A stretch of 39,093 nucleotides of DNA from Escherichia phage T7, in the sequence record AY264775.1; one strand, given 5' to 3'. Positions within the stretch are counted from its first letter, which is position 1; the number at the start of each line of letters is the position of its first letter. Positions 1,472 to 23,318 of this stretch are shown piece after piece. Under the pieces are notes generated by a model, which had not been told where the DNA came from, searched no databases, and saw only the letters and a list, made by a program, of their open reading frames with translations. A program made the translations under genes and the position numbers.

Positions 1472-1615
1472 ATGTATATGCTTACTATCGGTCTACTCAC
1501 CGTTTTAGATCTAGCTGTAGGTGCATCCTTTGGGAAGGCTTTAGGTGTAGCTGTAGGTTCCTACTTTACCGCTTGCATCATCATAGAAATCATCAAAGGG
1601 GCACTACGCAAATGA
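1472..1615 (+). CDS. 0.5: gp0.5, small hydrophobic early protein
   Basis: 47-aa [15 protein letters not shown]... preceded by gaggaag SD; the longer track ORF 1406..1615 begins inside the RNase III site. Confidence 0.75.
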
Positions 1616-2256
1616 TGAAGCACTACGTTATGCCAATCCACACGTCCAACGGGACAACCGTATGTACACCTGATGGGTTCGCAATGAAACAACGAATCGA
1701 ACGCCTTAAGCGTGAACTCCGCATTAACCGCAAGTTCTTTGAGGGCATCGCCTCATTCGACATGCATAGCGGGAACATCATGTTCTCAAATGGAGACGTA
1801 CCATACATCACCAACCCGGTATCATTCTCGCAGAAGAAAGATGGTGGCGCATTCAGCATCGACCCTGAGGAACTCATCAAGGAAGTCGAGGAAGTCGCAC
1901 GACAGAAAGAAATTGACCGCGCTAAGGCCCGTAAAGAACGTCACGAGGGGCGCTTAGAGGCACGCAGATTCAAACGTCGCAACCGCAAGGCACGTAAAGC
2001 ACACAAAGCTAAGCGCGAAAGAATGCTTGCTGCGTGGCGATGGGCTGAACGTCAAGAACGGCGTAACCATGAGGTAGCTGTAGATGTACTAAGAAGAACC
2101 AATAACGCTATGCTCTGGGTCAACATGTTCTCTGGGGACTTTAAGGCGCTTGAGAAACGAATCGCGCTGCACTGGCGTAATGCTGACCGGATGGCTATCG
2201 CTAATGGTCTTACGCTCAACATTGATAAGCAACTTGACGTAATGTTAATGGACTGA
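1612..2256 (+). CDS. 0.6/0.7: In-frame fusion: N-terminal ~41 aa of gp0.6 joined to the C-terminal ~173 aa of gp0.7 (host-transcription shutoff part; protein kinase domain deleted)
   Basis: ORF starts [14 protein letters not shown] (gp0.6) and continues ...RINRK|[17 protein letters not shown]... (gp0.7 C-terminal region); length accounting against T7 indicates ~820 bp missing here. Confidence 0.8.
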
Positions 2257-2261
2257 TAGTC

Positions 2262-2312
2262 TTATCTTACAGGTCATTTGCGGGTGGCCTGAATAGGTAC
2301 GATTTACTAACT
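2262..2312 (+). promoter_or_regulatory. RNase III site R1 (approximate)
   Basis: Hairpin-forming leader upstream of gene 1 at the T7 R1 position. Confidence 0.45.
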
Positions 2313-2326
2313 GAAAGAGGCACTAA

Positions 2327-4978
2327 ATGAACACGATTAACATTGCTAAGAACGACTTCTCTGACATCGAACTGGCTGCTATCCCGTTCAACACTCTGGC
2401 TGACCATTACGGTGAGCGTTTAGCTCGCGAACAGTTGGCTCTTGAACATGAGTCTTACGAGATGGGTGAAGCACGCTTCCGCAAGATGTTTGAGCGTCAA
2501 CTTAAAGCTGGTGAGGTTGCGGATAACGCTGCCGCCAAGCCTCTCATCACTACCCTACTCCCTAAGATGATTGCACGCATCAACGACTGGTTTGAGGAAG
2601 TGAAAGCTAAGCGCGGCAAGCGTCCGACAGCCTTCCAGTTTCTGCAAGAAATCAAGCCGGAAGCCGTAGCGTACATCACCATTAAAACCACTCTGGCTTG
2701 CCTAACCAGTGCTGACAATATAACCGTTCAGGCTGTAGCAAGCGCAATCGGTCGGGCCATTGAGGACGAGGCTCGCTTCGGTCGTATCCGTGACCTTGAA
2801 GCTAAGCACTTCAAGAAAAACGTTGAGGAACAACTCAACAAGCGCGTAGGGCACGTCTACAAGAAAGCATTTATGCAAGTTGTCGAGGCTGACATGCTCT
2901 CTAAGGGTCTACTCGGTGGCGAGGCGTGGTCTTCGTGGCATAAGGAAGACTCTATTCATGTAGGAGTACGCTGCATCGAGATGCTCATTGAGTCAACCGG
3001 AATGGTTAGCTTACACCGCCAAAATGCTGGCGTAGTAGGTCAAGACTCTGAGACTATCGAACTCGCACCTGAATACGCTGAGGCTATCGCAACCCGTGCA
3101 GGTGCGCTGGCTGGCATTTCTCCAATGTTCCAACCTTGCGTAATTCCTTCTAAGCCGTGGACTGGCATTACTGGTGGTGGCTATTGGGCTAACGGTCGTC
3201 GTCCTCTGGCGCTGGTGCGTACTCACAGTAAGAAAGCACTGATGCGCTACGAAAACGTTTACATGCCTGAGGTGTACAAAGCGATTAACATTGCGCAAAA
3301 CACCGCATGGAAAATCAACAAGAAAGTCCTAGCGGTCGCCAACGTAATTACCAAGTGGAAGCATTGTCCGGTCGAGGACATCCCTGCGATTGAGCGTGAA
3401 GAACTCCCGATGAAACCGAAAGACATCGACATGAATCCTGAGGCTCTCACCGCGTGGAAACGTGCTGCCGCTGCTGTGTACCGCAAGGACAAGGCTCGCA
3501 AATCTCGCCGTATCAACCTTGAGTTCATGCTTGAGCAAGCCAATAAGTTTGCTAACCATAAGGCCATCTGGTTCCCTTACAACATGGACTGGCGCGGTCG
3601 TGTTTACGCTGTGTCAATGTTCAACCCGCAAGGTAACGATATGACCAAAGGACTGCTTACGCTGGCGAAAGGTAAACCAATCGGTAAGGAAGGTTACTAC
3701 TGGCTGAAAATCCACGGTGCAAACTGTGCGGGTGTCGATAAGGTTCCGTTCCCTGAGCGCATCAAGTTCATTGAGGAAAACCACGAGAACATCATGGCTT
3801 GTGCTAAGTCTCCACTGGAGAACACTTGGTGGGCTGAGCAAAATTCTCCGTTCTGCTTCCTTGCGTTCTGCTTTGAGTACGCTGGAGTACAGCACCACGG
3901 CCTGAGCTATAACTGCTCCCTTCCGCTGGCGTTTGACGGGTCTTGCTCTGGCATCCAGCACTTCTCCGCGATGCTCCGAGATGAGGTAGGTGGTCGCGCG
4001 GTTAACTTGCTTCCTAGTGAAACCGTTCAGGACATCTACGGGATTGTTGCTAAAAAAGTCAACGAGATTCTACAAGCAGACGCAATCAATGGGACTGATA
4101 ACGAAGTAGTTACCGTGACCGATGAGAACACTGGTGAAATCTCTGAGAAAATCAAACTGGGCACTAAGGCACTGGCTGGTCAATGGCTGGCTTACGGTGT
4201 TACTCGCAGTGTGACTAAGCGTTCAGTCATGACGCTGGCTTACGGGTCCAAAGAGTTCGGCTTCCGTCAACAAGTGCTAGAAGATACCATTCAGCCAGCT
4301 ATTGATTCCGGCAAGGGTCTGATGTTCACTCAGCCGAATCAGGCTGCTGGATACATGGCTAAGCTGATTTGGGAATCTGTGAGCGTGACGGTGGTAGCTG
4401 CGGTTGAAGCAATGAACTGGCTTAAGTCTGCTGCTAAGCTGCTGGCTGCTGAGGTCAAAGATAAGAAGACTGGAGAGATTCTTCGCAAGCGTTGCGCTGT
4501 GCATTGGGTAACTCCTGATGGTTTCCCTGTGTGGCAGGAATACAAGAAGCCTATTCAGACGCGCTTGAACCTGATGTTCCTCGGTCAGTTCCGCTTACAG
4601 CCTACCATTAATACCAACAAAGATAGCGAGATTGATGCACACAAACAGGAGTCTGGTATCGCTCCTAACTTTGTACACAGTCAAGACGGTAGCCATCTTC
4701 GTAAGACTGTAGTGTGGGCACACGAGAAGTACGGAATCGAATCTTTTGCACTGATTCACGACTCCTTCGGTACCATTCCGGCTGACGCTGCGAACCTGTT
4801 CAAAGCAGTGCGCGAAACTATGGTTGACACATATGAGTCTTGTGATGTACTGGCTGATTTCTACGACCAGTTCGCTGACCAGTTGCACGAGTCTCAATTG
4901 GACAAAATGCCAGCACTTCCGGCTAAAGGTAACTTGAACCTCCGTGACATCTTAGAGTCGGACTTCGCGTTCGCGTAA
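2327..4978 (+). CDS. 1: T7 RNA polymerase (gp1)
   Basis: 883-aa ORF, essentially identical to canonical T7 RNAP apart from a handful of substitutions. Confidence 0.99.
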   Translation: MNTINIAKNDFSDIELAAIPFNTLADHYGERLAREQLALEHESYEMGEARFRKMFERQLKAGEVADNAAAKPLITTLLPKMIARINDWFEEVKAKRGKRPTAFQFLQEIKPEAVAYITIKTTLACLTSADNITVQAVASAIGRAIEDEARFGRIRDLEAKHFKKNVEEQLNKRVGHVYKKAFMQVVEADMLSKGLLGGEAWSSWHKEDSIHVGVRCIEMLIESTGMVSLHRQNAGVVGQDSETIELAPEYAEAIATRAGALAGISPMFQPCVIPSKPWTGITGGGYWANGRRPLALVRTHSKKALMRYENVYMPEVYKAINIAQNTAWKINKKVLAVANVITKWKHCPVEDIPAIEREELPMKPKDIDMNPEALTAWKRAAAAVYRKDKARKSRRINLEFMLEQANKFANHKAIWFPYNMDWRGRVYAVSMFNPQGNDMTKGLLTLAKGKPIGKEGYYWLKIHGANCAGVDKVPFPERIKFIEENHENIMACAKSPLENTWWAEQNSPFCFLAFCFEYAGVQHHGLSYNCSLPLAFDGSCSGIQHFSAMLRDEVGGRAVNLLPSETVQDIYGIVAKKVNEILQADAINGTDNEVVTVTDENTGEISEKIKLGTKALAGQWLAYGVTRSVTKRSVMTLAYGSKEFGFRQQVLEDTIQPAIDSGKGLMFTQPNQAAGYMAKLIWESVSVTVVAAVEAMNWLKSAAKLLAAEVKDKKTGEILRKRCAVHWVTPDGFPVWQEYKKPIQTRLNLMFLGQFRLQPTINTNKDSEIDAHKQESGIAPNFVHSQDGSHLRKTVVWAHEKYGIESFALIHDSFGTIPADAANLFKAVRETMVDTYESCDVLADFYDQFADQLHESQLDKMPALPAKGNLNLRDILESDFAFA

Positions 4979-6946: not shown

Positions 6947-7039
6947 ATGATGTACTTAATGCCATTACTCATCGTCATTGTAGGATGCCTTGCGCTCTAC
7001 TGTAGCGATGATGATGATATGCCAAATGGTCACGCTTAA
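6947..7039 (+). CDS. 1.5: gp1.5 (30 codons here; contains a GAT x4 run)
   Basis: ORF MMYLMPLLIVIVGCLALYCSDDDDMPNGHA. Confidence 0.7.
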   Translation: MMYLMPLLIVIVGCLALYCSDDDDMPNGHA

Positions 7040-7912: not shown

Positions 7913-8245
<333 letters not shown>

Positions 8246-13082: not shown

Positions 13083-13490
13083 ATGCGTGACCCTAAAGTT
13101 ATCCAAGCAGAAATCGCTAAACTGGAAGTTGAACTGGAGGACGTTAAGTACCATGAAGCTAAGACTCGCTCCGCTGTTCACATCTTGAAAAACTTAGGCT
13201 GGACTTGGACAAGACAGACTGGCTGAAAGAAACCAGAAGTTACCAAGTTGAGTCATAAGGTGTTCGATAAGGACACTATGACCCACATCAAGGCTGGTGA
13301 TTGGGTTAAGGTTGACATGGGAATTGTTGGTGGATACGACTACGTCCGCTCAGTTAGTGACAAATATGCACAAATGTCATACATCACAGATGTTACTCCA
13401 CGCGGTGCAATCGTTACCGATAAGACCAACATGATTCACACAGATTTCTTGACAGTTGTTTCATATGAAGAGATTGTTAAGTCACGATAA
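13083..13490 (+). pseudogene. 4.7: gp4.7 reading frame interrupted by an in-frame TGA at 13224-13226 (codon 48 of 135)
   Basis: ATG at 13083 after phi4.7 and an SD; same frame continues to the stop at 13488-13490; the track splits it into ORFs 12954..13226 and 13248..13490 in one frame. Confidence 0.8.
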
Positions 13491-13508
13491 TCAATAGGAG
13501 AAATCAAT

Positions 13509-15623
13509 ATGATCGTTTCTGACATCGAAGCTAACGCCCTCTTAGAGAGCGTCACTAAGTTCCACTGCGGGGTTATCTACGACTACTCCACCGCTGAGTA
13601 CGTAAGCTACCGTCCGAGTGACTTCGGTGCGTATCTGGATGCGCTGGAAGCCGAGGTTGCACGAGGCGGTCTTATTGTGTTCCACAACGGTCACAAGTAT
13701 GACGTTCCTGCATTGACCAAACTGGCAAAGTTGCAATTGAACCGAGAGTTCCACCTTCCTCGTGAGAACTGTATTGACACCCTTGTGTTGTCACGTTTGA
13801 TTCATTCCAACCTCAAGGACACCGATATGAGTCTTCTGCGTTCCGGCAAATTGCCCGGAAAACGCTTTGGGTCTCACACTTTGGAGGCGTGGGGTTATCG
13901 CTTAGGCGAGATGAAGGGTGAATACAAAGACGACTTTAAGCGTATGCTTGAAGAGCAGGGTGAAGAATACGTTGACGGAATGGAGTGGTGGAACTTCAAC
14001 GAAGAGATGATGGACTATAACGTTCAGGACGTTGTGGTAACTAAAGCTCTTCTTGAGAAGCTACTCTCTGACAAACATTACTTCCCTCCTGAGATTGACT
14101 TTACGGACATAGGATACACTACGTTCTGGTCAGAATCCCTTGAGGCCGTTGACATTGAACATCGTGCTGCATGGCTGCTCGCTAAACAAGAGCGCAACGG
14201 GTTCCCGTTTGACACAAAAGCAATCGAAGAGTTGTACGTAGAGTTAGCTTCTCGCCGCTCTGAGTTGCTCCGTAAATTGACCGAAACGTTCGGCTCGTGG
14301 TATCAGCCTAAAGGTGGCACTGAGATGTTCTGCCATCCGCGAACAGATAAGCCACTACCTAAATACCCTCGCATTAAGACACCTAAAGTTGGTGGTATCT
14401 TTAAGAAGCCTAAGAACAAGGCACAGCGAGAAGGCCGTGAGCCTTGCGAACTTGATACCCGCGAGTACGTTGCTGGTGCTCCTTATACCCCAGTTGAACA
14501 TGTTGTGTTTAACCCTTCGTCTCGTGACCACATTCAGAAGAAACTCCAAGAGGCTGGGTGGGTCCCGACCAAGTACACCGATAAGGGTGCTCCTGTGGTG
14601 GACGATGAGGTACTCGAAGGAGTACGTGTAGATGACCCTGAGAAGCAAGCCGCTATCGACCTCATTAAAGAGTACTTGATGATTCAGAAGCGAATCGGAC
14701 AGTCTGCTGAGGGAGACAAAGCATGGCTTCGTTATGTTGCTGAGGATGGTAAGATTCATGGTTCTGTTAACCCTAATGGAGCAGTTACGGGTCGTGCGAC
14801 CCATGCGTTCCCAAACCTTGCGCAAATTCCGAGTGTACGTTCTCCTTATGGAGAGCAGTGTCGCGCTGCTTTTGGCGCTGAGCACCATTTGGATGGGATA
14901 ACTGGTAAGCCTTGGGTTCAGGCTGGCATCGACGCATCCGGTCTTGAGCTACGCTGCTTGGCTCACTTCATGGCTCGCTTTGATAACGGCGAGTACGCTC
15001 ACGAGATTCTTAACGGCGACATCCACACTAAGAACCAGATAGCTGCTGAACTACCTACCCGAGATAACGCTAAGACATTCATCTATGGGTTCCTCTATGG
15101 TGCTGGTGATGAGAAGATTGGACAGATTGTTGGTGCTGGTAAAGAGCGCGGTAAGGAACTCAAGAAGAAATTCCTTAAGAACACCCCCGCGATTGCAGCA
15201 CTCCGCGAGTCTATCCAACAGACACTTGTCGAGTCCTTTCAATGGGTAGCTGGTGAGCAACAAGTCAAGTGGAAACGCCGCTGGATTAAAGGTCTGGATG
15301 GTCGTAAGATACACGTTCGTAGTCCTCACGCTGCCTTGAATACCCTACTGCAATCTGCTGGTGCTCTCATCTGCAAACTGTGGATTATCAAGACCGAAGA
15401 GATGCTCGTAGAGAAAGGCTTGAAGCATGGCTGGGATGGGGACTTTGCGTACATGGCATGGGTACATGATGAAATCCAAGTAGGCTGCCGTACCGAAGAG
15501 ATTGCTCAGGTGGTCATTGAGACCGCACAAGAAGCGATGCGCTGGGTTGGAGATCACTGGAACTTCCGGTGTCTTCTGGATACCGAAGGTAAGATGGGTC
15601 TTAATTGGGCGATTTGCCACTGA
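13509..15623 (+). CDS. 5: DNA polymerase (gp5)
   Basis: 704-aa ORF, T7 DNA polymerase including the thioredoxin-binding region. Confidence 0.98.
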
Positions 15624-15638
15624 TACAGGAGGCTACTC

Positions 15639-15995
15639 ATGAACGAAAGACACTTAACAGGTGCTGCTTCTGAAATGCTAGTAGCCTACAAATTTACCAA
15701 AGCTGGGTACACTGTCTATTACTCTATGCTGACTCAGAGTAAAGAGGACTTGGTTGTATGTAAGGATGGTAAATTTAGTAAGGTTCAGGTTAAAACAGCT
15801 ACAACGGTTCAAACCAACACAGGAGATGCCAAGCAGGTTAGGCTAGGTGAATGCGGTAGGTCCGAATATAAGGATGGAGACTTTGACATTCTTGCAGTTG
15901 TGGTTGACGAAGATGTGCTTATTTTCACATGGGACGAAGTAAAAGGTAAGACATCCATGTGTGTCGGCAAGAGAAACAAAGGCATAAAACTATAG
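15639..15995 (+). CDS. 5.3: gp5.3
   Basis: 118-aa ORF. Confidence 0.85.
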   Translation: MNERHLTGAASEMLVAYKFTKAGYTVYYSMLTQSKEDLVVCKDGKFSKVQVKTATTVQTNTGDAKQVRLGECGRSEYKDGDFDILAVVVDEDVLIFTWDEVKGKTSMCVGKRNKGIKL

Positions 15996-16006
15996 GAGAA
16001 ATTATT

Positions 16007-16306
16007 ATGGCTATGACAAAGAAATTTAAAGTGTCCTTCGACGTTACCGCAAAGATGTCGTCTAACGTTCAGACAATCTTAGAGAAAGATATGCTGCATC
16101 TATGTAAGCAGGTCGGCTCAAGTGCGATTGTCCCCAATGGTAAACAGAAGGAAATGATTGTCCAGTTTCTGACACACGGTATGGAAGGATTGATGACATT
16201 CGTAGTACGTACATCATTTCGTGAGGCCATTAAGGACATGCACGAAGAGTATGCAGATAAGGACTCTTTCAAACAATCTCCTGCAACAGTACGGGAGGTG
16301 TTCTGA
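16007..16306 (+). CDS. 5.5: gp5.5, H-NS-binding protein
   Basis: 99-aa ORF MAMTKKFKVSFDVTAKMSSNVQTILEKDMLHL... Confidence 0.9.
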   Translation: MAMTKKFKVSFDVTAKMSSNVQTILEKDMLHLCKQVGSSAIVPNGKQKEMIVQFLTHGMEGLMTFVVRTSFREAIKDMHEEYADKDSFKQSPATVREVF

Positions 16307-16515
16307 TGTCTGACTATCTGAAAGTGCTGCAAGCAATCAAAAGTTGCCCTAAGACTTTCCAGTCCAACTATGTACGGAACAATGCGAGCCTCGTAGCGGA
16401 GGCCGCTTCCCGTGGTCACATCTCGTGCCTGACTACTAATGGACGTAACGGTGGCGCTTGAGAAATCACTGCTTCCGATATTCGCTTTCTGAAACGAATG
16501 AGAGGATGTGTCTAA
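16306..16515 (+). pseudogene. 5.7: gp5.7 (inhibitor of sigma-S RNA polymerase) interrupted by an in-frame TGA at 16459-16461 (codon 52 of 69)
   Basis: MSDYLKVLQAIKSCPKTFQSNYVRNNASLVAEAASRGHISCLTTNGRNGGA*EITASDIRFLKRMRGCV*. Confidence 0.8.
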
Positions 16516-16673
16516 TGTCTCGTGACCTTGTGACTATTCTACGCGATGTGTGAAACGATATACAGGGCTACATCGACTCTCTGGAACGTGAGAACGATAG
16601 CCTTAAGAATCAACTAATGGAAGCTGACGAATACGTAGCGGAACTAGAGGAGAAACTTAATGGCACTTCTTGA
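16515..16673 (+). pseudogene. 5.9: gp5.9 (RecBCD inhibitor) interrupted by an in-frame TGA at 16551-16553 (codon 13 of 52)
   Basis: MSRDLVTILRDV*NDIQGYIDSLERENDSLKNQLMEADEYVAELEEKLNGTS*. Confidence 0.85.
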
Positions 16674-17562
16674 CCTTAAACAATTCTATGAGTTACGTGA
16701 AGGCTGCGACGACAAGAGTATCCTTGTGATGGACGGCGACTGGCTGGTCTTCCAAGCTATGAGTGCTGCTGAGTTTGATGCCTCTTGGGAGGAAGAGATT
16801 TGGCACCGATGCTGTGACCACGCTAAGGCCCGTCAGATTCTTGAGGATTCCATTAAGTCCTACGAGACCCGTAAGAAGGCTTGGGCAGGTGCTCCAATTG
16901 TCCTTGCGTTCACCGATAGTGTTAACTGGCGTAAAGAACTGGTTGACCCGAACTATAAGACTAACCGTAAGGCCGTGAAGAAACCTGTAGGGTACTTTGA
17001 GTTCCTTGATGCTCTCTTTGAGCGCGAAGAGTTCTATTGCATCCGTGAGCCTATGCTTGAGGGTGATGACGTTATGGGAGTTATTGCTTCCAATCCGTCT
17101 GCCTTCGGTGCTCGTAAGGCTGTAATCATCTCTTGCGATAAGGACTTTAAGACCATTCCTAACTGTGACTTCCTGTGGTGTACCACTGGTAACATCCTGA
17201 TTCAGACCGAAGAGTCCGCTGACTGGTGGCACCTTTTCCAGACCATCAAGGGTGACATCACTGATGGTTACTCAGGGATTGCTGGATGGGGTGATACCGC
17301 CGAGGACTTCTTGAATAACCCGTTCATAATCGAGCCTAAAACGTCTGTGCTTAAGTCCGGTAAGAACAAAGGCCAAGAGGTTACTAAATGGATTAAACGC
17401 GATCCTGAGCCTCATGAGACGCTTTGGGACTGCATTAAGTCCATTGGCGCGAAGGCTGGTATGACCGAAGAGGATATTATCAAGCAGGGCCAAATGGCTC
17501 GAATTCTACGGTTCAACGAGTACAACTTTATTGACAAGGAGATTTACCTGTGGAGACCGTAG
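16660..17562 (+). CDS. 6: 5'-3' exonuclease (gp6)
   Basis: 300-aa ORF. Confidence 0.97.
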   Translation: MALLDLKQFYELREGCDDKSILVMDGDWLVFQAMSAAEFDASWEEEIWHRCCDHAKARQILEDSIKSYETRKKAWAGAPIVLAFTDSVNWRKELVDPNYKTNRKAVKKPVGYFEFLDALFEREEFYCIREPMLEGDDVMGVIASNPSAFGARKAVIISCDKDFKTIPNCDFLWCTTGNILIQTEESADWWHLFQTIKGDITDGYSGIAGWGDTAEDFLNNPFIIEPKTSVLKSGKNKGQEVTKWIKRDPEPHETLWDCIKSIGAKAGMTEEDIIKQGQMARILRFNEYNFIDKEIYLWRP

Positions 17563-17663
17563 CGTATATTGGTCTGGGTCTTTGTGTTCTCGGAGTGTGC
17601 CTCATTTCGTGGGGCCTTTGGGACTTAGTCAGAATAATCAAGTCGTTACACGACACTAAGTGA
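17550..17663 (+). CDS. 6.3: gp6.3 (37 aa)
   Basis: Frame from GTG at 17550: VETVAYIGLGLCVLGVCLISWGLWDLVRIIKSLHDTK. Confidence 0.55.
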   Translation: METVAYIGLGLCVLGVCLISWGLWDLVRIIKSLHDTK

Positions 17664-17722
17664 TAAACTCAAGGTCCCTAAATTAATACGACTCACTATA
17701 GGGAGATAGGGGCCTTTACGAT
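17656..17722 (+). promoter_or_regulatory. RNase III site R6.5 (approximate; overlaps phi6.5)
   Basis: aactcaaggtccc ... ggggcctttacgattatt motif flanking the promoter. Confidence 0.5.
17684..17706 (+). promoter_or_regulatory. T7 promoter phi6.5 (class III, consensus)
   Basis: taatacgactcactatagggaga. Confidence 0.95.
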
Positions 17723-17760
17723 TATTACTTTAAGATTTAACTCTAAGAGGAATCTTTATT

Positions 17761-18015
17761 ATGTTAACACCTATTAACCAATTACTTAAGAACCCTAACG
17801 ATATTCCAGATGTACCTCGTGCAACCGCTGAGTATCTACAGGTTCGATTCAACTATGCGTACCTCGAAGCGTCTGGTCATATAGGACTTATGCGTGCTAA
17901 TGATTGTAGTGAGGCCCACATCTTGGGTTTCATTCAGGGCCTACAATATGCCTCTAACGTCATTGACGAGATTGAGTTACGCAAGGAACAACTAAGAAAT
18001 GATGAGGAGAATTGA
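17761..18015 (+). CDS. 6.5: gp6.5
   Basis: 84-aa ORF. Confidence 0.85.
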
Positions 18016-18019
18016 CACT

Positions 18020-18286
18020 ATGTGTTTCTCACCGAAAATTAAAACTCCGAAGATGGATACCAATCAGATTCGAGCCGTTGAGCCAACGCCTCTGACCCAA
18101 GAAGTGTCAAGCGTGGAGTTCGGTGGGTCTTCTGATGAGACGGATACCGAGGGCACCGAAGTGTCTGGACGCAAAGGCCTCAAGGTCGAACGTGATGATT
18201 CCGTAACGAAGTCTAAAGCCAGCGGCAATGGCTCCGCTCGTATGAAATCTTCCATCCGTAAGTCCGCATTTGGAGGTAAGAAGTGA
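18020..18286 (+). CDS. 6.7: gp6.7, virion protein
   Basis: 88-aa ORF MCFSPKIKTPKMDTNQIRAV... Confidence 0.85.
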   Translation: MCFSPKIKTPKMDTNQIRAVEPTPLTQEVSSVEFGGSSDETDTEGTEVSGRKGLKVERDDSVTKSKASGNGSARMKSSIRKSAFGGKK

Positions 18287-18687
18287 TGTCTGAGTTCACA
18301 TGTGTGGAGGCTAAGAGTCGCTTCCGTGCAATCCGGTGGACTGTGGAACACCTTGGGTTGCCTAAAGGATTCGAAGAACACTTTGTGGGCTACAGCCTCT
18401 ACGTAGACGAAGTGATGGACATGTTTGGTTGCCGTGAAGAGTACATTCTGGACTCTACCGGAAAACATGTAGCGTACTTCGCGTGGTGCGTAAGCTGTGA
18501 CATTCACCACAAAGGAGACATTCTGGATGTAACATCCGTTGTCATTAATCCTGAGGCAGACTCTAAGGGCTTACAGCGATTCCTAGCGAAACGCTTTAAG
18601 TACCTTGCGGAACTCCACGATTGCGATTGGGTGTCTCGTTGTAAACATGAAAGCGAGACAATGCGTGTATACTTTAAGGAGGTATAA
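18286..18687 (+). CDS. 7: gp7, host-range protein
   Basis: 133-aa ORF MSEFTCVEAKSRFRAIRW... Confidence 0.85.
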   Translation: MSEFTCVEAKSRFRAIRWTVEHLGLPKGFEEHFVGYSLYVDEVMDMFGCREEYILDSTGKHVAYFAWCVSCDIHHKGDILDVTSVVINPEADSKGLQRFLAKRFKYLAELHDCDWVSRCKHESETMRVYFKEV

Positions 18688-18690
18688 GTT

Positions 18691-18990
18691 ATGGATAAGA
18701 AAGTTAAGAAGGCCGTGAAGAAAGTCGCCAAGTTCGTTAAGAAAGTCGTTAAGGAAGGGGCTCGTCCGGTTAAACAGGTTGCTGGCGGTCTAGCTGGTCT
18801 GGCTGGTGGTACTGGTGAAGCACAGATGGTGAAAGTACCACAAGCTGCCGCACAGATTGTTGACGTACCTGAGAAAGAGGTTTCCACTGAGGACGAAGCA
18901 CAGACAGAAAGCGGACGCAAGAAAGCTCGTGCTGGCGGTAAGAAATCCTTGAGTGTAGCCCGTAGCTCCGGTAGCGGTATCAACATTTAA
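18691..18990 (+). CDS. 7.3: gp7.3, tail-associated virion protein
   Basis: 99-aa Lys/Ala-rich ORF. Confidence 0.85.
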   Translation: MDKKVKKAVKKVAKFVKKVVKEGARPVKQVAGGLAGLAGGTGEAQMVKVPQAAAQIVDVPEKEVSTEDEAQTESGRKKARAGGKKSLSVARSSGSGINI

Positions 18991-19003
18991 TCAAGAGGTT
19001 ATC

Positions 19004-19396
19004 GTGGAAGACTGCATCGAATGGGCCGGAGGTGTCAACTCTAAGGGTTATGATCGTAAGTGGGTTAATGGTAAACTTGTGACTCCACATAGGCACATCT
19101 GTGAGGAGACATATGATCCAGTTCCAACAGGAATTGTGGTGATGCATATCTGCGATAACCCTAGGTGCTATAACATAAAGCACCTTACGCTTGGAACTCC
19201 AAAGAATAATTCCGAGGACATGGTTACCAAAGGTAGACAGGCTAAAGGAGAGGAACTAAGCAAGAAACTTACAGAGTCAGACGTTCTCGCTATACGCTCT
19301 TCAACCTTAAGCCACCGCTCCTTAGGAGAACTGTATGGAGTCAGTCAATCAACCATAACGCGAATACTACAGCGTAAAACATGGAGACACATTTAA
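19004..19396 (+). CDS. 7.7: gp7.7, HNH endonuclease-like protein
   Basis: 130-aa ORF with HNH-like Cys/His motif resembling gp2.8. Confidence 0.85.
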   Translation: MEDCIEWAGGVNSKGYDRKWVNGKLVTPHRHICEETYDPVPTGIVVMHICDNPRCYNIKHLTLGTPKNNSEDMVTKGRQAKGEELSKKLTESDVLAIRSSTLSHRSLGELYGVSQSTITRILQRKTWRHI

Positions 19397-21006
19397 TGGC
19401 TGAGAAACGAACAGGACTTGCAGAGGATGGCGCAAAGTCTGTCTATGAGCGTTTAAAGAACGACCGTGCTCCCTATGAGACACGCGCTCAGAATTGCGCT
19501 CAATATACCATCCCATCATTGTTCCCTAAGGACTCCGATAACGCCTCTACAGATTATCAAACTCCGTGGCAAGCCGTGGGCGCTCGTGGTCTGAACAATC
19601 TAGCCTCTAAGCTCATGCTGGCTCTATTCCCTATGCAGACTTGGATGCGACTTACTATATCTGAATATGAAGCAAAGCAGTTACTGAGCGACCCCGATGG
19701 ACTCGCTAAGGTCGATGAGGGCCTCTCGATGGTAGAGCGTATCATCATGAACTACATTGAGTCTAACAGTTACCGCGTGACTCTCTTTGAGGCTCTCAAA
19801 CAGTTAGTCGTAGCTGGTAACGTCCTGCTGTACCTACCGGAACCGGAAGGGTCAAACTATAATCCCATGAAGCTGTACCGATTGTCTTCTTATGTGGTCC
19901 AACGAGACGCATTCGGCAACGTTCTGCAAATGGTGACTCGTGACCAGATAGCTTTTGGTGCTCTCCCTGAGGACATCCGTAAGGCTGTAGAAGGTCAAGG
20001 TGGTGAGAAGAAAGCTGATGAGACAATCGACGTATACACTCACATCTATCTGGATGAGGACTCAGGTGAATACCTCCGATACGAAGAGGTCGAGGGTATG
20101 GAAGTCCAAGGCTCCGATGGAACTTATCCTAAAGAGGCTTGCCCATACATCCCGATTCGGATGGTCAGACTAGATGGTGAATCCTACGGTCGTTCGTACA
20201 TTGAGGAATACTTAGGTGACTTACGGTCCCTTGAAAATCTCCAAGAGGCTATCGTCAAGATGTCCATGATTAGCTCTAAGGTTATCGGCTTAGTGAATCC
20301 TGCTGGTATCACCCAGCCACGCCGACTGACCAAAGCTCAGACTGGTGACTTCGTTACTGGTCGTCCAGAAGACATCTCGTTCCTCCAACTGGAGAAGCAA
20401 GCAGACTTTACTGTAGCTAAAGCCGTAAGTGACGCTATCGAGGCTCGTCTTTCGTTTGCCTTTATGTTGAACTCTGCGGTTCAGCGTACAGGTGAACGTG
20501 TGACCGCCGAAGAGATTCGGTATGTAGCTTCTGAACTTGAAGATACTTTAGGTGGTGTCTACTCTATCCTTTCTCAAGAATTACAATTGCCTCTGGTACG
20601 AGTGCTCTTGAAGCAACTACAAGCCACGCAACAGATTCCTGAGTTACCTAAGGAAGCCGTAGAGCCAACCATTAGTACAGGTCTGGAAGCAATTGGTCGA
20701 GGACAAGACCTTGATAAGCTGGAGCGGTGTGTCACTGCGTGGGCTGCACTGGCACCTATGCGGGACGACCCTGATATTAACCTTGCGATGATTAAGTTAC
20801 GTATTGCCAACGCTATCGGTATTGACACTTCTGGTATTCTACTCACCGAAGAACAGAAGCAACAGAAGATGGTCCAACAGTCTATGCAAATGGGTATGGA
20901 TAATGGTGCTGCTGCGCTGGCTCAAGGTATGGCTGCACAAGCTACAGCTTCACCTGAGGCTATGGCTGCTGCCGCTGATTCCGTAGGTTTACAGCCGGGA
21001 ATTTAA
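19396..21006 (+). CDS. 8: Portal (head-tail connector) protein gp8
   Basis: 536-aa frame starting MAEKRTGLAEDGAKSVYERL... Confidence 0.97.
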   Translation: MAEKRTGLAEDGAKSVYERLKNDRAPYETRAQNCAQYTIPSLFPKDSDNASTDYQTPWQAVGARGLNNLASKLMLALFPMQTWMRLTISEYEAKQLLSDPDGLAKVDEGLSMVERIIMNYIESNSYRVTLFEALKQLVVAGNVLLYLPEPEGSNYNPMKLYRLSSYVVQRDAFGNVLQMVTRDQIAFGALPEDIRKAVEGQGGEKKADETIDVYTHIYLDEDSGEYLRYEEVEGMEVQGSDGTYPKEACPYIPIRMVRLDGESYGRSYIEEYLGDLRSLENLQEAIVKMSMISSKVIGLVNPAGITQPRRLTKAQTGDFVTGRPEDISFLQLEKQADFTVAKAVSDAIEARLSFAFMLNSAVQRTGERVTAEEIRYVASELEDTLGGVYSILSQELQLPLVRVLLKQLQATQQIPELPKEAVEPTISTGLEAIGRGQDLDKLERCVTAWAALAPMRDDPDINLAMIKLRIANAIGIDTSGILLTEEQKQQKMVQQSMQMGMDNGAAALAQGMAAQATASPEAMAAAADSVGLQPGI

Positions 21007-21026
21007 TACGACTCACTATAGGGAGA
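21004..21026 (+). promoter_or_regulatory. T7 promoter phi9 (class III)
   Basis: taatacgactcactatagggaga. Confidence 0.95.
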
Positions 21027-21105
21027 CCTCATCTTTGAAATGAGCGATGACAAGAGGTTGGAGTCCTCGGTCTTCCTGTAGTTCAACTTTAAGGAGACAA
21101 TAATA

Positions 21106-22029
21106 ATGGCTGAATCTAATGCAGACGTATATGCATCTTTTGGCGTGAACTCCGCTGTGATGTCTGGTGGTTCCGTTGAGAAACATGAGCAGAACATGCT
21201 GGCTCTTGATGTTGCTGCCCGTGATGGCGATGATGCAATCGAGTTAGCGTCAGACGAAGTGGAAACAGAACGTGACCTGTATGACAACTCTGACCCGTTC
21301 GGTCAAGAGGATGACGAAGGCCGCATTCAGGTTCGTATCGGTGATGGCTCTGAGCCGACCGATGTGAACACTGGAGAAGAAGGCGTTGAGGGCACCGAAG
21401 GTTCCGAAGAGTTTACCCCACTGGGCGAGACTCCAGAAGAACTGGTAGCTGCCTCTGAGCAACTTGGTGAGCACGAAGAGGGCTTCCAAGAGATGATTAA
21501 CATTGCTGCTGAGCGTGGCATGAGTGTCGAGACCATTGAGGCTATCCAGCGTGAGTACGAGGAGAACGAAGAGTTGTCCGCCGAGTCCTACGCTAAGTTG
21601 GCTGAAATTGGCTACACGAAGGCTTTCATTGACTCGTATATCCGTGGTCAAGAAGCTCTGGTGAAGCAGTATGTAAACAGTGTCATTGAGTACGCTGGTG
21701 GTCGTGAACGTTTTGATGCACTGTATAACCACCTTGAGACGCACAACCCTGAGGCTGCACAGTCGCTGGATAATGCGTTGACCAATCGTGACTTAGCGAC
21801 CGTTAAGGCTATCATCAACTTGGCTGATGAATCTCGCGTTAAGGCGTTCGGTCGTAAGCCAACTCGTAGTGTGACTAATCGTGCTATTCCGGCTAAACCT
21901 CAGGTTATCAAGTGTGAAGGCTTTGCGGACCGTAGCGAGATGATTAAAGCTATGAGTGATCCTCGGTATCGCACAGATGCCAACTATCGTCGTCAAGTCG
22001 AACAGAAAGTAATCGATTCGAACTTCTGA
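21106..22029 (+). CDS. 9: Capsid assembly scaffolding protein gp9
   Basis: 307-aa acidic ORF. Confidence 0.97.
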   Translation: MAESNADVYASFGVNSAVMSGGSVEKHEQNMLALDVAARDGDDAIELASDEVETERDLYDNSDPFGQEDDEGRIQVRIGDGSEPTDVNTGEEGVEGTEGSEEFTPLGETPEELVAASEQLGEHEEGFQEMINIAAERGMSVETIEAIQREYEENEELSAESYAKLAEIGYTKAFIDSYIRGQEALVKQYVNSVIEYAGGRERFDALYNHLETHNPEAAQSLDNALTNRDLATVKAIINLADESRVKAFGRKPTRSVTNRAIPAKPQVIKCEGFADRSEMIKAMSDPRYRTDANYRRQVEQKVIDSNF

Positions 22030-22042
22030 TAGACTTCGAAAT

Positions 22043-22065
22043 TAATACGACTCACTATAGGGAGA
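22043..22065 (+). promoter_or_regulatory. T7 promoter phi10 (class III)
   Basis: taatacgactcactatagggaga followed by the gene 10 leader familiar from pET vectors. Confidence 0.98.
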
Positions 22066-22100
22066 CCACAACGGTTTCCCTCTAGAAATAATTTTGTTTA

Positions 22101-22122
22101 ACTTTAAGAAGGAAATATACAT
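22101..22122 (+). promoter_or_regulatory. Gene 10 translation initiation region with altered Shine-Dalgarno (aaggaa instead of aaggag)
   Basis: tttaagaaggaaatatacat ATG; the canonical T7 gene 10 leader is tttaagaaggagatatacat. Confidence 0.85.
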
Positions 22123-23160
22123 ATGGCTAGCATGACTGGTGGACAGCAAATGGGTACTAATCAAGGTAAAGGTGTAGTTGCTGCTGGAGATAAACTGGCG
22201 TTGTTCTTGAAGATATTTGGCGGTGAAGTCCTGACTGCGTTCGCTCGTACCTCCGTGACCACTTCTCGCCACATGGTACGTTCCATCTCCAGCGGTAAAT
22301 CCGCTCAGTTCCCTGTTCTGGGTCGCACTCAGGCAGCGTATCTGGCTCCGGGCGAGAACCTCGACGATAAACGTAAGGACATCAAACACACCGAGAAGGT
22401 AATCACCATTGACGGTCTCCTGACGGCTGACGTTCTGATTTATGATATTGAGGACGCGATGAACCACTACGACGTTCGCTCTGAGTATACCTCTCAGTTG
22501 GGTGAATCTCTGGCGATGGCTGCGGATGGTGCGGTTCTGGCTGAGATTGCCGGTCTGTGTAACGTGGAAAGCAAATATAATGAGAACATCGAGGGCTTAG
22601 GTACTGCTACCGTAATTGAGATCACTCAGAACAAGACCGCACTTACCGACCAAGTTGTGCTGGGTAAGGAGATTATTGCGGCTCTGACTAAGGCTCGTGC
22701 GACTCTGACCAAGAACTATGTTCCGGCTGCTGACCGTGTGTTCTACTGTGACCCAGATAGCTACTCTGCGATTCTGGCAGCACTGATGCCGAACGCAGCA
22801 AACTACGCTGCTCTGATTGACCCTGAGAAGGGTTCTATCCGCAACGTTATGGGCTTTGAGGTTGTAGAAGTTCCGCACCTCACCGCTGGTGGTGCTGGTA
22901 TTGCTCGTGAGGGCACTACTGGTCAGAAGCACGTCTTCCCTGCCAATAAAGGTGAGGGTAATGTCAAGGTTGCTAAGGACAACGTTATCGGCCTGTTCAT
23001 GCACCGCTCTGCGGTAGGTACTGTTAAGCTGCGTGACTTGGCTCTGGAGCGCGCTCGCCGTGCTAACTTCCAAGCGGACCAGATTATCGCTAAGTACGCA
23101 ATGGGTCACGGTGGTCTTCGCCCAGAAGCTGCTGGTGCAGTGGTTTTCAAAGTGGAGTAA
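22123..23160 (+). CDS. 10A: Major capsid protein gp10A
   Basis: 345-aa ORF beginning MASMTGGQQMG (T7-tag). Confidence 0.99.
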   Translation: MASMTGGQQMGTNQGKGVVAAGDKLALFLKIFGGEVLTAFARTSVTTSRHMVRSISSGKSAQFPVLGRTQAAYLAPGENLDDKRKDIKHTEKVITIDGLLTADVLIYDIEDAMNHYDVRSEYTSQLGESLAMAADGAVLAEIAGLCNVESKYNENIEGLGTATVIEITQNKTALTDQVVLGKEIIAALTKARATLTKNYVPAADRVFYCDPDSYSAILAALMPNAANYAALIDPEKGSIRNVMGFEVVEVPHLTAGGAGIAREGTTGQKHVFPANKGEGNVKVAKDNVIGLFMHRSAVGTVKLRDLALERARRANFQADQIIAKYAMGHGGLRPEAAGAVVFKVE

Positions 23161-23318
23161 TGCTGGGGGTGGCCTCAACGGTCGCTGCTAGTCCCGAAGA
23201 GGCGAGTGTTACTTCAACAGAAGAAACCTTAACGCCAGCACAGGAGGCCGCACGCACCCGCGCTGCTAACAAAGCCTGAAAGGAAGCTGAGTTGGCTGCT
23301 GTCACCGCTGAGCAATAA
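22123..23318 (+). CDS. 10B: Minor capsid protein gp10B (frameshift product); the -1 frame extension carries a premature TGA at 23277-23279
   Basis: -1 frame after the shift reads ...EAARTRAANKA*KEAELAAVTAEQ*. Confidence 0.75.
23142..23150 (+). other. Programmed -1 ribosomal frameshift region of gene 10 (produces 10B)
   Basis: ggttttcaa slippery stretch just before the 10A stop; the -1 frame continues toward 23318. Confidence 0.7.

What the first reader, a model, noticed from the sequence alone, without database searches (positions are those of the whole stretch)
13083..23318. All four premature stops are UGA, three at Trp codons, and all in dispensable frames
No essential gene (1, 2.5, 3, 3.5, 4, 5, 6, 8-19) carries a premature stop, whereas 4.7, 5.7, 5.9 and the 10B tail each carry one TGA. 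UGA is the leakiest stop codon in E. coli and is misread by tRNA-Trp, so for the three TGG->TGA alleles rare readthrough would regenerate the wild-type protein. The pattern fits mutational load under purifying selection, possibly with tolerance through readthrough or an opal-suppressing host. TGA is still used as a genuine stop elsewhere (for example genes 0.5 and 1.6), so this is not a code reassignment.
Basis: inference. Interest (0 to 1): 0.65.

Follow-up and report, generated by a model that had tools for sequence, protein, structure and literature searches.

The report
Mutagen-made UGA stops in lab T7
The four premature UGA stops are real, but they are the expected footprint of a chemical mutagen (nitrosoguanidine type) in a published, laboratory-mutagenised phage T7 genome, with lethal stops removed by selection, so this is an ordinary and already explained pattern.

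Summary
Against wild-type T7, the window has exactly four nonsense changes in 57 annotated frames, and all four are TGA. They are 4.7 W48, 5.7 W52 and 5.9 W13 (each TGG>TGA) and the 10B tail (CGA>TGA). No essential gene is hit.

The window is GenBank AY264775, a mutagenised T7 lineage from the Bull et al. 2003 series, which also includes isolates K115, P and P82. It carries 414 substitutions, of which 390 are G>A or C>T. There is a strong bias by the base 5' of the mutated G: GG 3.8%, AG 2.8%, CG 1.0%, TG 0.7%. This is the nitrosoguanidine signature.

Of the five one-step GC>AT routes to a stop codon, only TGG>TGA hits a G preceded by a purine. The context model therefore predicts about 70% TGA. 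It gives P(4/4 TGA) of about 0.24, against 0.016 for a flat spectrum. It expects 3.4 stops in dispensable genes (4 observed) and 9.2 in essential genes (0 observed).

The independent lineage P shows the same pattern: two stops, both TGG>TGA, in genes 0.4 and 4.2.

Readthrough or an opal-suppressing host is not needed. The hit genes accumulate missense changes at or above the neutral rate. K115 later deleted genes 5.5 to 5.9, and P82 frameshifted gene 4.7. The finding is of low interest and is already known.

The parts
13083..13490 (+). Gene 4.7 frame, 135 codons in wild type. Truncated to 47 aa by TGG>TGA at window 13224-13226 (W48). It also carries 8 missense and 2 synonymous changes.
   Evidence: The identical allele is present in AY264776 (K115), where the depositors annotate the stretch only as 'similar to gene 4.7'.
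16306..16515 (+). Gene 5.7 frame, 69 codons in wild type. Truncated to 51 aa by TGG>TGA at window 16459-16461 (W52).
   Evidence: The region is deleted in descendant K115 (ref 16832-17485).
16515..16673 (+). Gene 5.9 frame (RecBCD inhibitor, 52 codons in wild type). Truncated to 12 aa by TGG>TGA at window 16551-16553 (W13).
   Evidence: The first 42 codons are deleted in K115.
23142..23148 (+). Gene 10 -1 frameshift slippery heptamer GGTTTTC, unchanged from wild type. 10B can therefore still be started.
   Evidence: sequence. One search shows no substitutions between ref 23950 and 24121.
23145..23318 (+). 10B frameshift tail, 57 codons in wild type. CGA>TGA at window 23277-23279 removes the last 13 aa, giving 385 aa instead of 398.
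   Evidence: The allele is retained in K115.

Best explanation
The window is a laboratory T7 lineage, GenBank AY264775 from the Bull et al. 2003 series. It was propagated under heavy chemical mutagenesis of the nitrosoguanidine (MNNG) type.

MNNG makes O6-methylguanine, which causes G:C>A:T transitions, preferentially at G preceded by a purine. There are five single-step GC>AT routes to a stop codon: TGG>TGA, TGG>TAG, CAG>TAG, CAA>TAA and CGA>TGA. Only TGG>TGA hits a G with a 5' purine (the second G of GG). The other four hit a G, on one strand or the other, that is preceded by T or C.

The mutagen therefore makes mostly UGA stops at Trp codons. Stops in essential genes are lethal and are removed by selection. 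Stops in genes that are dispensable in culture (4.7, 5.7, 5.9 and the 10B tail) are neutral or slightly favourable and become fixed. No readthrough, suppressor host or recoding is involved.

Shown here: the spectrum, the context bias, the expected and observed counts, the replication in lineage P, and the later loss of the same genes. Inferred: that the agent was MNNG and that the lineage went through bottlenecks. This rests on literature about this laboratory's T7 work and on my own recollection of the 2003 paper, which is not held in the library.
For: Identity of the window:
- gp5 and gp17 of the window are exact matches to NCBI AAP33990.1 and AAP34009.1, each on a single 39,093-bp contig. 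These accessions lie between the protein blocks of AY264774 and AY264776.
- AY264776 (K115) shares 384 of 414 substitutions with the window.
- AY264774 is the Bull et al. 2003 wild type (PMC2680503).

Spectrum:
- 390 of 414 substitutions are G>A or C>T.
- Rates by 5' neighbour are G 3.84%, A 2.77%, C 1.04% and T 0.69%, chi-square p=5e-32. The 3' neighbour has no effect, p=0.39.
- MNNG lesions and mutations favour G with a 5' purine (PMC11381349).
- This laboratory's T7 mutagenesis used nitrosoguanidine and gave GC>AT dominance (PMC6042481; PMC8923235).

Prediction against observation:
- Expected TGA fraction is 0.70.
- P(4/4 TGA) is 0.245.
- Expected stops in dispensable genes are 3.4, with 4 observed.
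- Expected stops in essential genes are 9.2, with 0 observed (P=1e-4).

Independent replicate:
- Lineage P shares only 22 substitutions with the window. It has two nonsense changes, both TGG>TGA, in dispensable genes 0.4 and 4.2.
- Joint probability of 6/6 TGA is 0.17 under the context model and 0.002 under a flat model.

No retained constraint:
- Missense observed/expected is 0.39 in essential genes, 1.04 in other dispensable genes and 1.58 in the four hit frames.
- K115 deletes ref 16832-17485, covering 5.5 to 5.9.
- P82 has a -1 frameshift at codon 4 of gene 4.7.
Against: There are only six nonsense events in total, so a modest extra filter favouring UGA over UAG or UAA cannot be excluded. 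The probability of seeing no TAG or TAA in dispensable genes is 0.36 for K and 0.71 for P, which is uninformative.

The context rates were estimated from fixed mutations in the same genome, so they include some selection. Rates from synonymous sites give the same conclusion, with a TGA fraction of 0.68 and P=0.21.

The mutagen's identity and the passage regime are not verifiable from the sequence, and the 2003 paper could not be read.

Three of the four stops are followed by A. From memory, this is a relatively leaky UGA context, but A follows 26 of 59 TGG codons in dispensable genes anyway.
Confidence: 0.88

Rival explanations
1. Readthrough-assisted tolerance. UGA stops are preferentially tolerated because Trp-tRNA(Trp) misreads UGA at a few percent, or because the host carried an opal suppressor. 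Enough full-length protein is then made, and selection as well as mutation enriches for UGA.
For: UGA readthrough by Trp-tRNA(Trp) is about 2% at 37 C in K-12 (PMC10570021). RF2 of K-12 is a weak terminator compared with RF2 of B strains (PMC5373646). Three of the four sites were Trp codons. All six stops in the two lineages are UGA.
Against: The mutational model alone predicts both the number and the type of stops. The hit frames carry missense changes at 1.58 times the neutral expectation, so no function is being conserved and readthrough would not give wild-type protein. K115 deletes 5.5 to 5.9 entirely, and P82 frameshifts 4.7 at codon 4. Twenty natural TGA terminators, including those of essential genes 4, 5, 9, 18 and 19, argue against growth on a strong opal suppressor.
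Confidence: 0.05
2. Adaptive knock-outs. At least some of the stops were fixed because losing the gene product is advantageous under laboratory passage, rather than being neutral load.
For: Gene 4.7 is inactivated independently by nonsense in K and by a frameshift in P82. The P82 frameshift arose in the later phase, when new changes are mostly not GC>AT. K115 deletes 5.5 to 5.9 during the same later phase. Deletions of genes 4.5 to 4.7 recur in other T7 evolution lines (PMC8923235). Parallel deletions and nonsense mutations in T7 are reported in the title of Cunningham et al. 1997 (cited).
Against: The observed number of stops in dispensable genes (4) matches the neutral expectation (3.4 to 6.6), so no excess needs explaining. 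Deletions may be favoured for genome length or replication time rather than for loss of the protein. This rival concerns why the stops were kept. It does not explain why they are all UGA.
Confidence: 0.15
3. Pure coincidence under an unbiased GC>AT spectrum, or sequencing or assembly error at these sites.
For: There are only four events. A small sample can look patterned.
Against: The flat model gives P=0.016 for K and 0.002 for K plus P, whereas the context bias is measured directly at p=5e-32. The 4.7 and 10B alleles are present in the separately deposited K115 genome.
Confidence: 0.02

Closest known systems
[quoted passage not shown]
   Same: The window's proteins match accessions that fall inside this submission block. 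Sister records K115, P and P82 share its mutations or its mutational spectrum. In those records the depositors demote the broken genes they marked to 'similar to gene X' features, or leave them out.
   Different: Nothing differs as far as I can test. The paper itself is not held, so I could not check whether the authors commented on the stop-codon type.
MNNG / SN1-alkylating-agent mutational signature (O6-methylguanine, GC>AT, 5'-purine preference)
   Same: 94% of substitutions are GC>AT. G preceded by a purine mutates 3.8 times more often than G preceded by a pyrimidine, and the 3' neighbour has no effect. The same lesion and mutation bias is described in PMC11381349.
   Different: The rates here come from fixed mutations after selection, not from raw mutagenesis, so absolute values are filtered. 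Rates at synonymous sites are higher, for example 6.7% at GG.
Near-cognate UGA readthrough by tRNA-Trp in E. coli K-12
   Same: Three stops are UGA at former Trp codons, so any leak would insert the original residue. The mechanism and a level of about 2% are given in PMC10570021.
   Different: Nothing in the sequence shows that the leak matters. The genes are decaying and are lost in descendants.
Cunningham et al. [quoted passage not shown]
   Same: It concerns the same phage and the same research group. Here too, early-region deletions arose independently in K (ref 1752-2571) and P (ref 2169-2987), and nonsense mutations lie in dispensable genes.
   Different: I know this paper only from its title and from citations. 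I could not compare the specific sites.

Membership tests
GenBank AY264775 (T7 isolate of the K lineage, Bull et al. 2003) | Exact identity of the encoded proteins and of the record length | tested here: met
   gp5 equals AAP33990.1 and gp17 equals AAP34009.1, each seen on one contig of 39,093 bp, which is the window length. These accessions lie between AAP33957 (AY264774) and AAP34018 (the first CDS of AY264776). AY264775 itself is absent from the searchable collection.
GenBank AY264775 (T7 isolate of the K lineage, Bull et al. 2003) | Shares derived mutations with isolate K115 | tested here: met
   384 of 414 substitutions are shared, along with both 3-nt indels. Gene 4.7 is 100% identical.
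MNNG-type alkylation mutational signature | Overwhelmingly G:C>A:T transitions, about equal on both strands | tested here: met
   199 G>A plus 191 C>T out of 414 substitutions. In lineage P, 286 of 304.
MNNG-type alkylation mutational signature | Preference for G with a 5' purine, with no 3'-neighbour effect | tested here: met
   In K, the 5' neighbour rates are G 3.84%, A 2.77%, C 1.04% and T 0.69% (p=5e-32), and the 3' neighbour gives p=0.39. In P they are 2.74%, 2.04%, 0.80% and 0.23%. Literature support is in PMC11381349.
MNNG-type alkylation mutational signature | Documented exposure of this lineage to the mutagen | not testable with these tools
   The 2003 paper is not held. Nitrosoguanidine use on T7 by the same laboratory is documented for other experiments. 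Its use on this particular lineage rests on my own recollection.
Functional or programmed stop-codon readthrough | The stop codon is conserved in relatives | tested here: not met
   Wild-type T7 and lineage P have TGG or CGA at all four sites.
Functional or programmed stop-codon readthrough | The coding sequence, including the part after the stop, remains under purifying selection | tested here: not met
   Missense observed/expected is 1.58 in the four frames against 0.39 in essential genes. The numbers are small: 14 observed against 8.8 expected.
Functional or programmed stop-codon readthrough | Full-length product detected | not testable with these tools
   This needs a western blot, mass spectrometry or a reporter fusion.
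UGA-to-Trp code reassignment (translation table 4 type) | In-frame TGA at conserved Trp positions of essential genes | tested here: not met
   There is no in-frame TGA in any essential gene. All 141 TGG codons in essential genes lack a nonsense change.
UGA-to-Trp code reassignment (translation table 4 type) | TGA is not used as a terminator | tested here: not met
   20 of 56 annotated frames end in TGA, unchanged from wild type, including genes 4, 5, 9, 18 and 19.

The most novel reading that the evidence does not exclude
Besides the mutagen's bias, there may be a real selective filter. On a K-12 host with its weak RF2, UGA stops in semi-dispensable phage genes would be less harmful than UAG or UAA stops, because a leak of about 2% through tRNA-Trp restores enough product. 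An example is gp5.9, which needs to titrate only a few RecBCD molecules. Mutagenised phage genomes would then be enriched for UGA beyond what the spectrum predicts.
Probability: 0.05. Interest if true: 0.3.

Novelty: already known. Interest (0 to 1): 0.08.

Why it matters
It matters little for biology. The window is a published, deliberately mutagenised laboratory genome, and the UGA-only pattern follows from textbook properties of alkylating mutagens plus purifying selection.

It is useful as a caution. A striking codon-level pattern (all stops UGA, all at Trp codons) can be produced entirely by a mutagen's nearest-neighbour preference. It should be tested against a context-aware mutational model before translational explanations such as readthrough or suppression are invoked.

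It also gives a clean quantitative picture of which T7 genes behave as neutral sequence in culture. Missense observed/expected is about 1.0 in the dispensable genes and 0.39 in the essential genes.

Tried and rejected
- Flat GC>AT model. It gives P(4/4 TGA)=0.016 and P(6/6)=0.002. I rejected it as the null model because the 5'-context bias is measured at p=5e-32.
- Cytosine-deamination-type spectra (APOBEC-like or hydroxylamine-like, driven by the base 5' of C). These were rejected because the base 3' of the mutated G, which is the complement of the base 5' of C, has no effect, p=0.39.
- Reading the primary papers. Springman et al. 2010 could not be retrieved by DOI or PMC id, and searches for Bull et al. 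2003 returned only papers that cite it. I used citing papers instead.
- AY264775 is not in the phage collection. Identity was established through exact protein look-up.
- A search for literature on the 'known phylogeny' of T7 with nitrosoguanidine gave nothing usable.
- Splitting the dispensable genes into 'hit' and 'not hit' gives 0 stops against 5.1 expected in the latter. I disregarded this because the split is post hoc. The pooled count of 4 against 3.4 to 6.6 is the valid comparison.
- Code reassignment was rejected.
- Technical note. Two loci fetched in parallel (L003, L004) were not exported to the script machine and had to be re-fetched as L005 and L006.
Full report
**1. What the window is**

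The finding region matches phage T7 at 99.0% identity over its full length. A whole-genome alignment to T7 NC_001604 gives the following differences:
- 414 substitutions;
- the first 24 reference bases missing;
- an 820-bp deletion, ref 1752-2571, running from the end of gene 0.6 into gene 0.7;
- two in-frame 3-nt indels.

Gene 4.7 of the window carries 11 changes relative to wild type, yet it is 100% identical to GenBank AY264776, 'T7 isolate K115'. The neighbouring records are AY264777 (isolate P) and AY264778 (isolate P82). AY264775 is absent from the searchable collection.

An exact-sequence look-up shows that the window's gp5 and gp17 are NCBI AAP33990.1 and AAP34009.1. Each occurs on a single contig of 39,093 bp, which is the window's length. 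These accessions sit between the protein blocks of AY264774 and AY264776, so the window is AY264775. [quoted passage not shown] That study is cited for fixing random mutations through serial bottlenecks (PMC4811365).

**2. Checking the observation**

Mapping every substitution onto 57 annotated T7 frames gives exactly four nonsense changes:
- 4.7 W48, TGG>TGA, window 13224-13226;
- 5.7 W52, TGG>TGA, window 16459-16461;
- 5.9 W13, TGG>TGA, window 16551-16553;
- codon 45 of the 57-codon 10B frameshift tail, CGA>TGA, window 23277-23279.

Direct translations confirm all four. The products are truncated to 47, 51, 12 and 385 aa, against 135, 69, 52 and 398 aa in wild type. The gene 10 slippery heptamer GGTTTTC (window 23142-23148) is intact.

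No other frame has a premature stop, essential or not. There is no TAG or TAA nonsense codon, no start codon is lost, and no natural stop codon is changed.

**3. Why the stops are all UGA**

Of the 414 substitutions, 199 are G>A and 191 are C>T. I collapsed the two strands and classified each mutated G by its neighbours.

| 5' neighbour of the mutated G | Rate |
|---|---|
| G | 3.84% |
| A | 2.77% |
| C | 1.04% |
| T | 0.69% |

The chi-square test on the 5' neighbour gives p=5e-32. The 3' neighbour has no effect (p=0.39). This is the signature of SN1 methylating agents such as MNNG. O6-methylguanine lesions and the resulting mutations arise preferentially at G flanked by a 5' purine (PMC11381349). 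The same laboratory's T7 mutagenesis with nitrosoguanidine gave GC>AT dominance (PMC6042481; PMC8923235).

Only five single GC>AT steps create a stop codon:
- TGG>TGA hits a G preceded by G, the most mutable context.
- TGG>TAG hits a G preceded by T.
- CAG>TAG and CAA>TAA are G>A on the other strand, at a G preceded by T.
- CGA>TGA is G>A on the other strand, at a G preceded by C.

I weighted the codon content of the dispensable genes by the measured context rates.

| Model for dispensable genes | Expected TGA fraction | P(4/4 TGA) |
|---|---|---|
| Flat GC>AT spectrum | 0.35 | 0.016 |
| 5'-context rates from this genome | 0.68-0.70 | 0.21-0.245 |

The expected number of stops in dispensable genes is 3.4 with whole-genome rates and 6.6 with synonymous-site rates. 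Four are observed. Both the type and the number of stops are what the mutagen predicts for neutrally evolving sequence.

**4. Why the stops are all in dispensable genes**

The same model expects 9.2 to 17.7 nonsense mutations in essential genes, and none is observed (P between 1e-4 and 2e-8). The chance that all four stops fall in dispensable frames without selection is 0.0055.

Context-corrected missense observed/expected ratios are as follows:

| Gene class | Missense observed/expected |
|---|---|
| Essential genes | 0.39 |
| Other dispensable genes | 1.04 |
| The four hit frames | 1.58 (14 observed, 8.8 expected) |

Purifying selection removes stops from essential genes, while the dispensable genes drift as neutral sequence.

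**5. Independent replication**

Isolate P has 304 substitutions, of which 286 are GC>AT. It shares only 22 substitutions with the window, and it has a different deletion in gene 0.7, ref 2169-2987. Its context bias is stronger still: GG 2.74%, AG 2.04%, CG 0.80%, TG 0.23%.

P has two nonsense mutations, 0.4 W28 and 4.2 W59. Both are TGG>TGA, and both lie in dispensable frames. With lineage-specific rates, P(2/2 TGA)=0.70. The joint probability of 6/6 TGA across both lineages is 0.17, against 0.002 under a flat spectrum. The joint probability that all six stops avoid essential genes by chance is 4e-4.

**6. The readthrough and suppressor idea**

Trp-tRNA(Trp) competes with RF2 at UGA and gives about 2% readthrough at 37 C in K-12 (PMC10570021). 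RF2 of K-12 terminates less well than RF2 of B strains (PMC5373646).

Nothing here requires it, however, and several results speak against it mattering:
- (a) The neutral mutational model already fits the data.
- (b) The hit genes carry further missense changes: 8 in 4.7, 4 in 5.7 and 1 in 5.9. Readthrough would therefore not restore wild-type protein, and there is no sign of retained constraint.
- (c) K115, which shares 384 of the window's 414 substitutions and carries 26 further changes, has deleted ref 16832-17485. This removes 5.5, 5.7 and most of 5.9, including both TGA alleles.
- (d) P82 acquired a -1 frameshift at codon 4 of gene 4.7, a complete null, in a phase whose new mutations are mostly not GC>AT.
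- (e) Deletions of genes 4.5 to 4.7 recur in unrelated T7 evolution lines (PMC8923235).
- (f) The 20 natural TGA terminators argue against growth on an efficient opal suppressor.

With six events, a weak extra filter against TAG and TAA cannot be excluded statistically. The probability of seeing none is 0.36 in K and 0.71 in P. I give this reading about 5%.

**7. A nuance: neutral load or adaptive loss**

Gene 4.7 is knocked out independently in two lineages, and the 5.5 to 5.9 block is deleted later. Some of these losses may therefore be mildly advantageous rather than strictly neutral. The stop count shows no excess over the neutral expectation, so this is not needed either. In any case it concerns why the stops were retained, not why they are UGA.

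**8. Comparison with known systems, and verdict**

The pattern is a textbook outcome of alkylating-agent mutagenesis plus purifying selection, in a published and deposited laboratory genome. In the sister records, the depositors demoted broken genes to 'similar to gene X' features (0.4 and 4.2 in P and P82, 4.7 in K115) or left them out (2.8 and 4.7 in P82). It is not programmed readthrough, because the stops are not conserved, there is no constraint, and the genes are lost in descendants. It is not a code change, because TGA remains a terminator and essential genes have no in-frame TGA.

- Observation: confirmed.
Load under purifying selection and no reassignment are right. Readthrough or a suppressor host is unnecessary. 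The actual cause, the mutagen's nearest-neighbour bias, was missed.
- Novelty: already known.
- Interest: low.

Noticed in passing
window 1727/1728 (junction; ref 1752-2571 missing): An 820-bp deletion runs from the end of gene 0.6A into gene 0.7, with a 7-bp microhomology (CCGCAAG) at the junction. Lineage P has an independent 819-bp deletion in gene 0.7 (ref 2169-2987, with junction homology around CTTGAG). K115 enlarges the deletion to ref 1502-3091. Early-region loss is therefore parallel.
   Followed up: partly
window 7007-7009 (gene 1.5) and after window 7355 (gene 1.7; ref 8197-8199): There are two in-frame 3-nt slippage events. One adds a GAT to a (GAT)3 run in gene 1.5. The other removes 3 nt from the A-rich run GAAAAAGAAAAC in gene 1.7. 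Both are also present in K115 and absent from P.
   Followed up: partly
L002 (K115) versus the window; ref 16832-17485 = window 15988-16641: K115 carries a 654-bp deletion that removes the end of 5.3, all of 5.5 and 5.7, and most of 5.9. The junction lies in a short repeat (ACTA(T)AGGAGAAAC, an RBS-like sequence). The genes that carry stops in the window are lost completely in K115.
   Followed up: yes
L006 (P82), ref 13935 (gene 4.7 codon 4) and ref 10247 (end of gene 2.8, 10 nt upstream of the gene 3 start): P82 gained two single-base deletions. One frameshifts gene 4.7 at codon 4. This is a parallel knock-out of the gene that carries the TGA in the window. The other shortens a G run in GGGAGG just upstream of the gene 3 ATG, so it may alter the gene 3 ribosome-binding site as well as the gene 2.8 C-terminus.
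   Followed up: partly
window 22636 (ref 23480, gene 10A) and window 27926 (ref 28770, gene 15): At two sites the window and K115 carry different derived bases: G>A against G>C at ref 23480, and T>C against T>A at ref 28770. A handful of the window's substitutions outside the deleted regions are wild type in K115 (ref 304, 7020, 27498). These look like re-mutation or reversion during fitness recovery.
   Followed up: no
whole window; for example window 14250 (ref 15094, gene 5), 18727 (ref 19571, gene 7.3), 29875 (ref 30719, gene 16), 35320/35545/35618 (ref 36164/36389/36462, genes 17 and 17.5): 22 substitutions are shared by the otherwise independent K and P lineages, and 6 of them are not GC>AT. 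They reflect either a shared early trunk of the experiment or parallel adaptive changes.
   Followed up: no
window 13157-13456 (ref 14001-14300, gene 4.7) and window 16439-16553 (ref 17283-17397, genes 5.7/5.9): These are the densest mutation clusters in the genome: 10 substitutions in 300 nt, and 7 in 115 nt. G>A and C>T changes also show mild strand-coordinated runs (175 runs against 196 expected, z=-2.1). This fits relaxed selection, possibly combined with multi-hit mutagenesis events.
   Followed up: partly
L005 (P), ref 13164: The P-lineage stop in gene 4.2 (W59 TGG>TGA) lies inside the overlapping essential gene 4, where the same base change is a tolerated missense change (E534K).
   Followed up: yes
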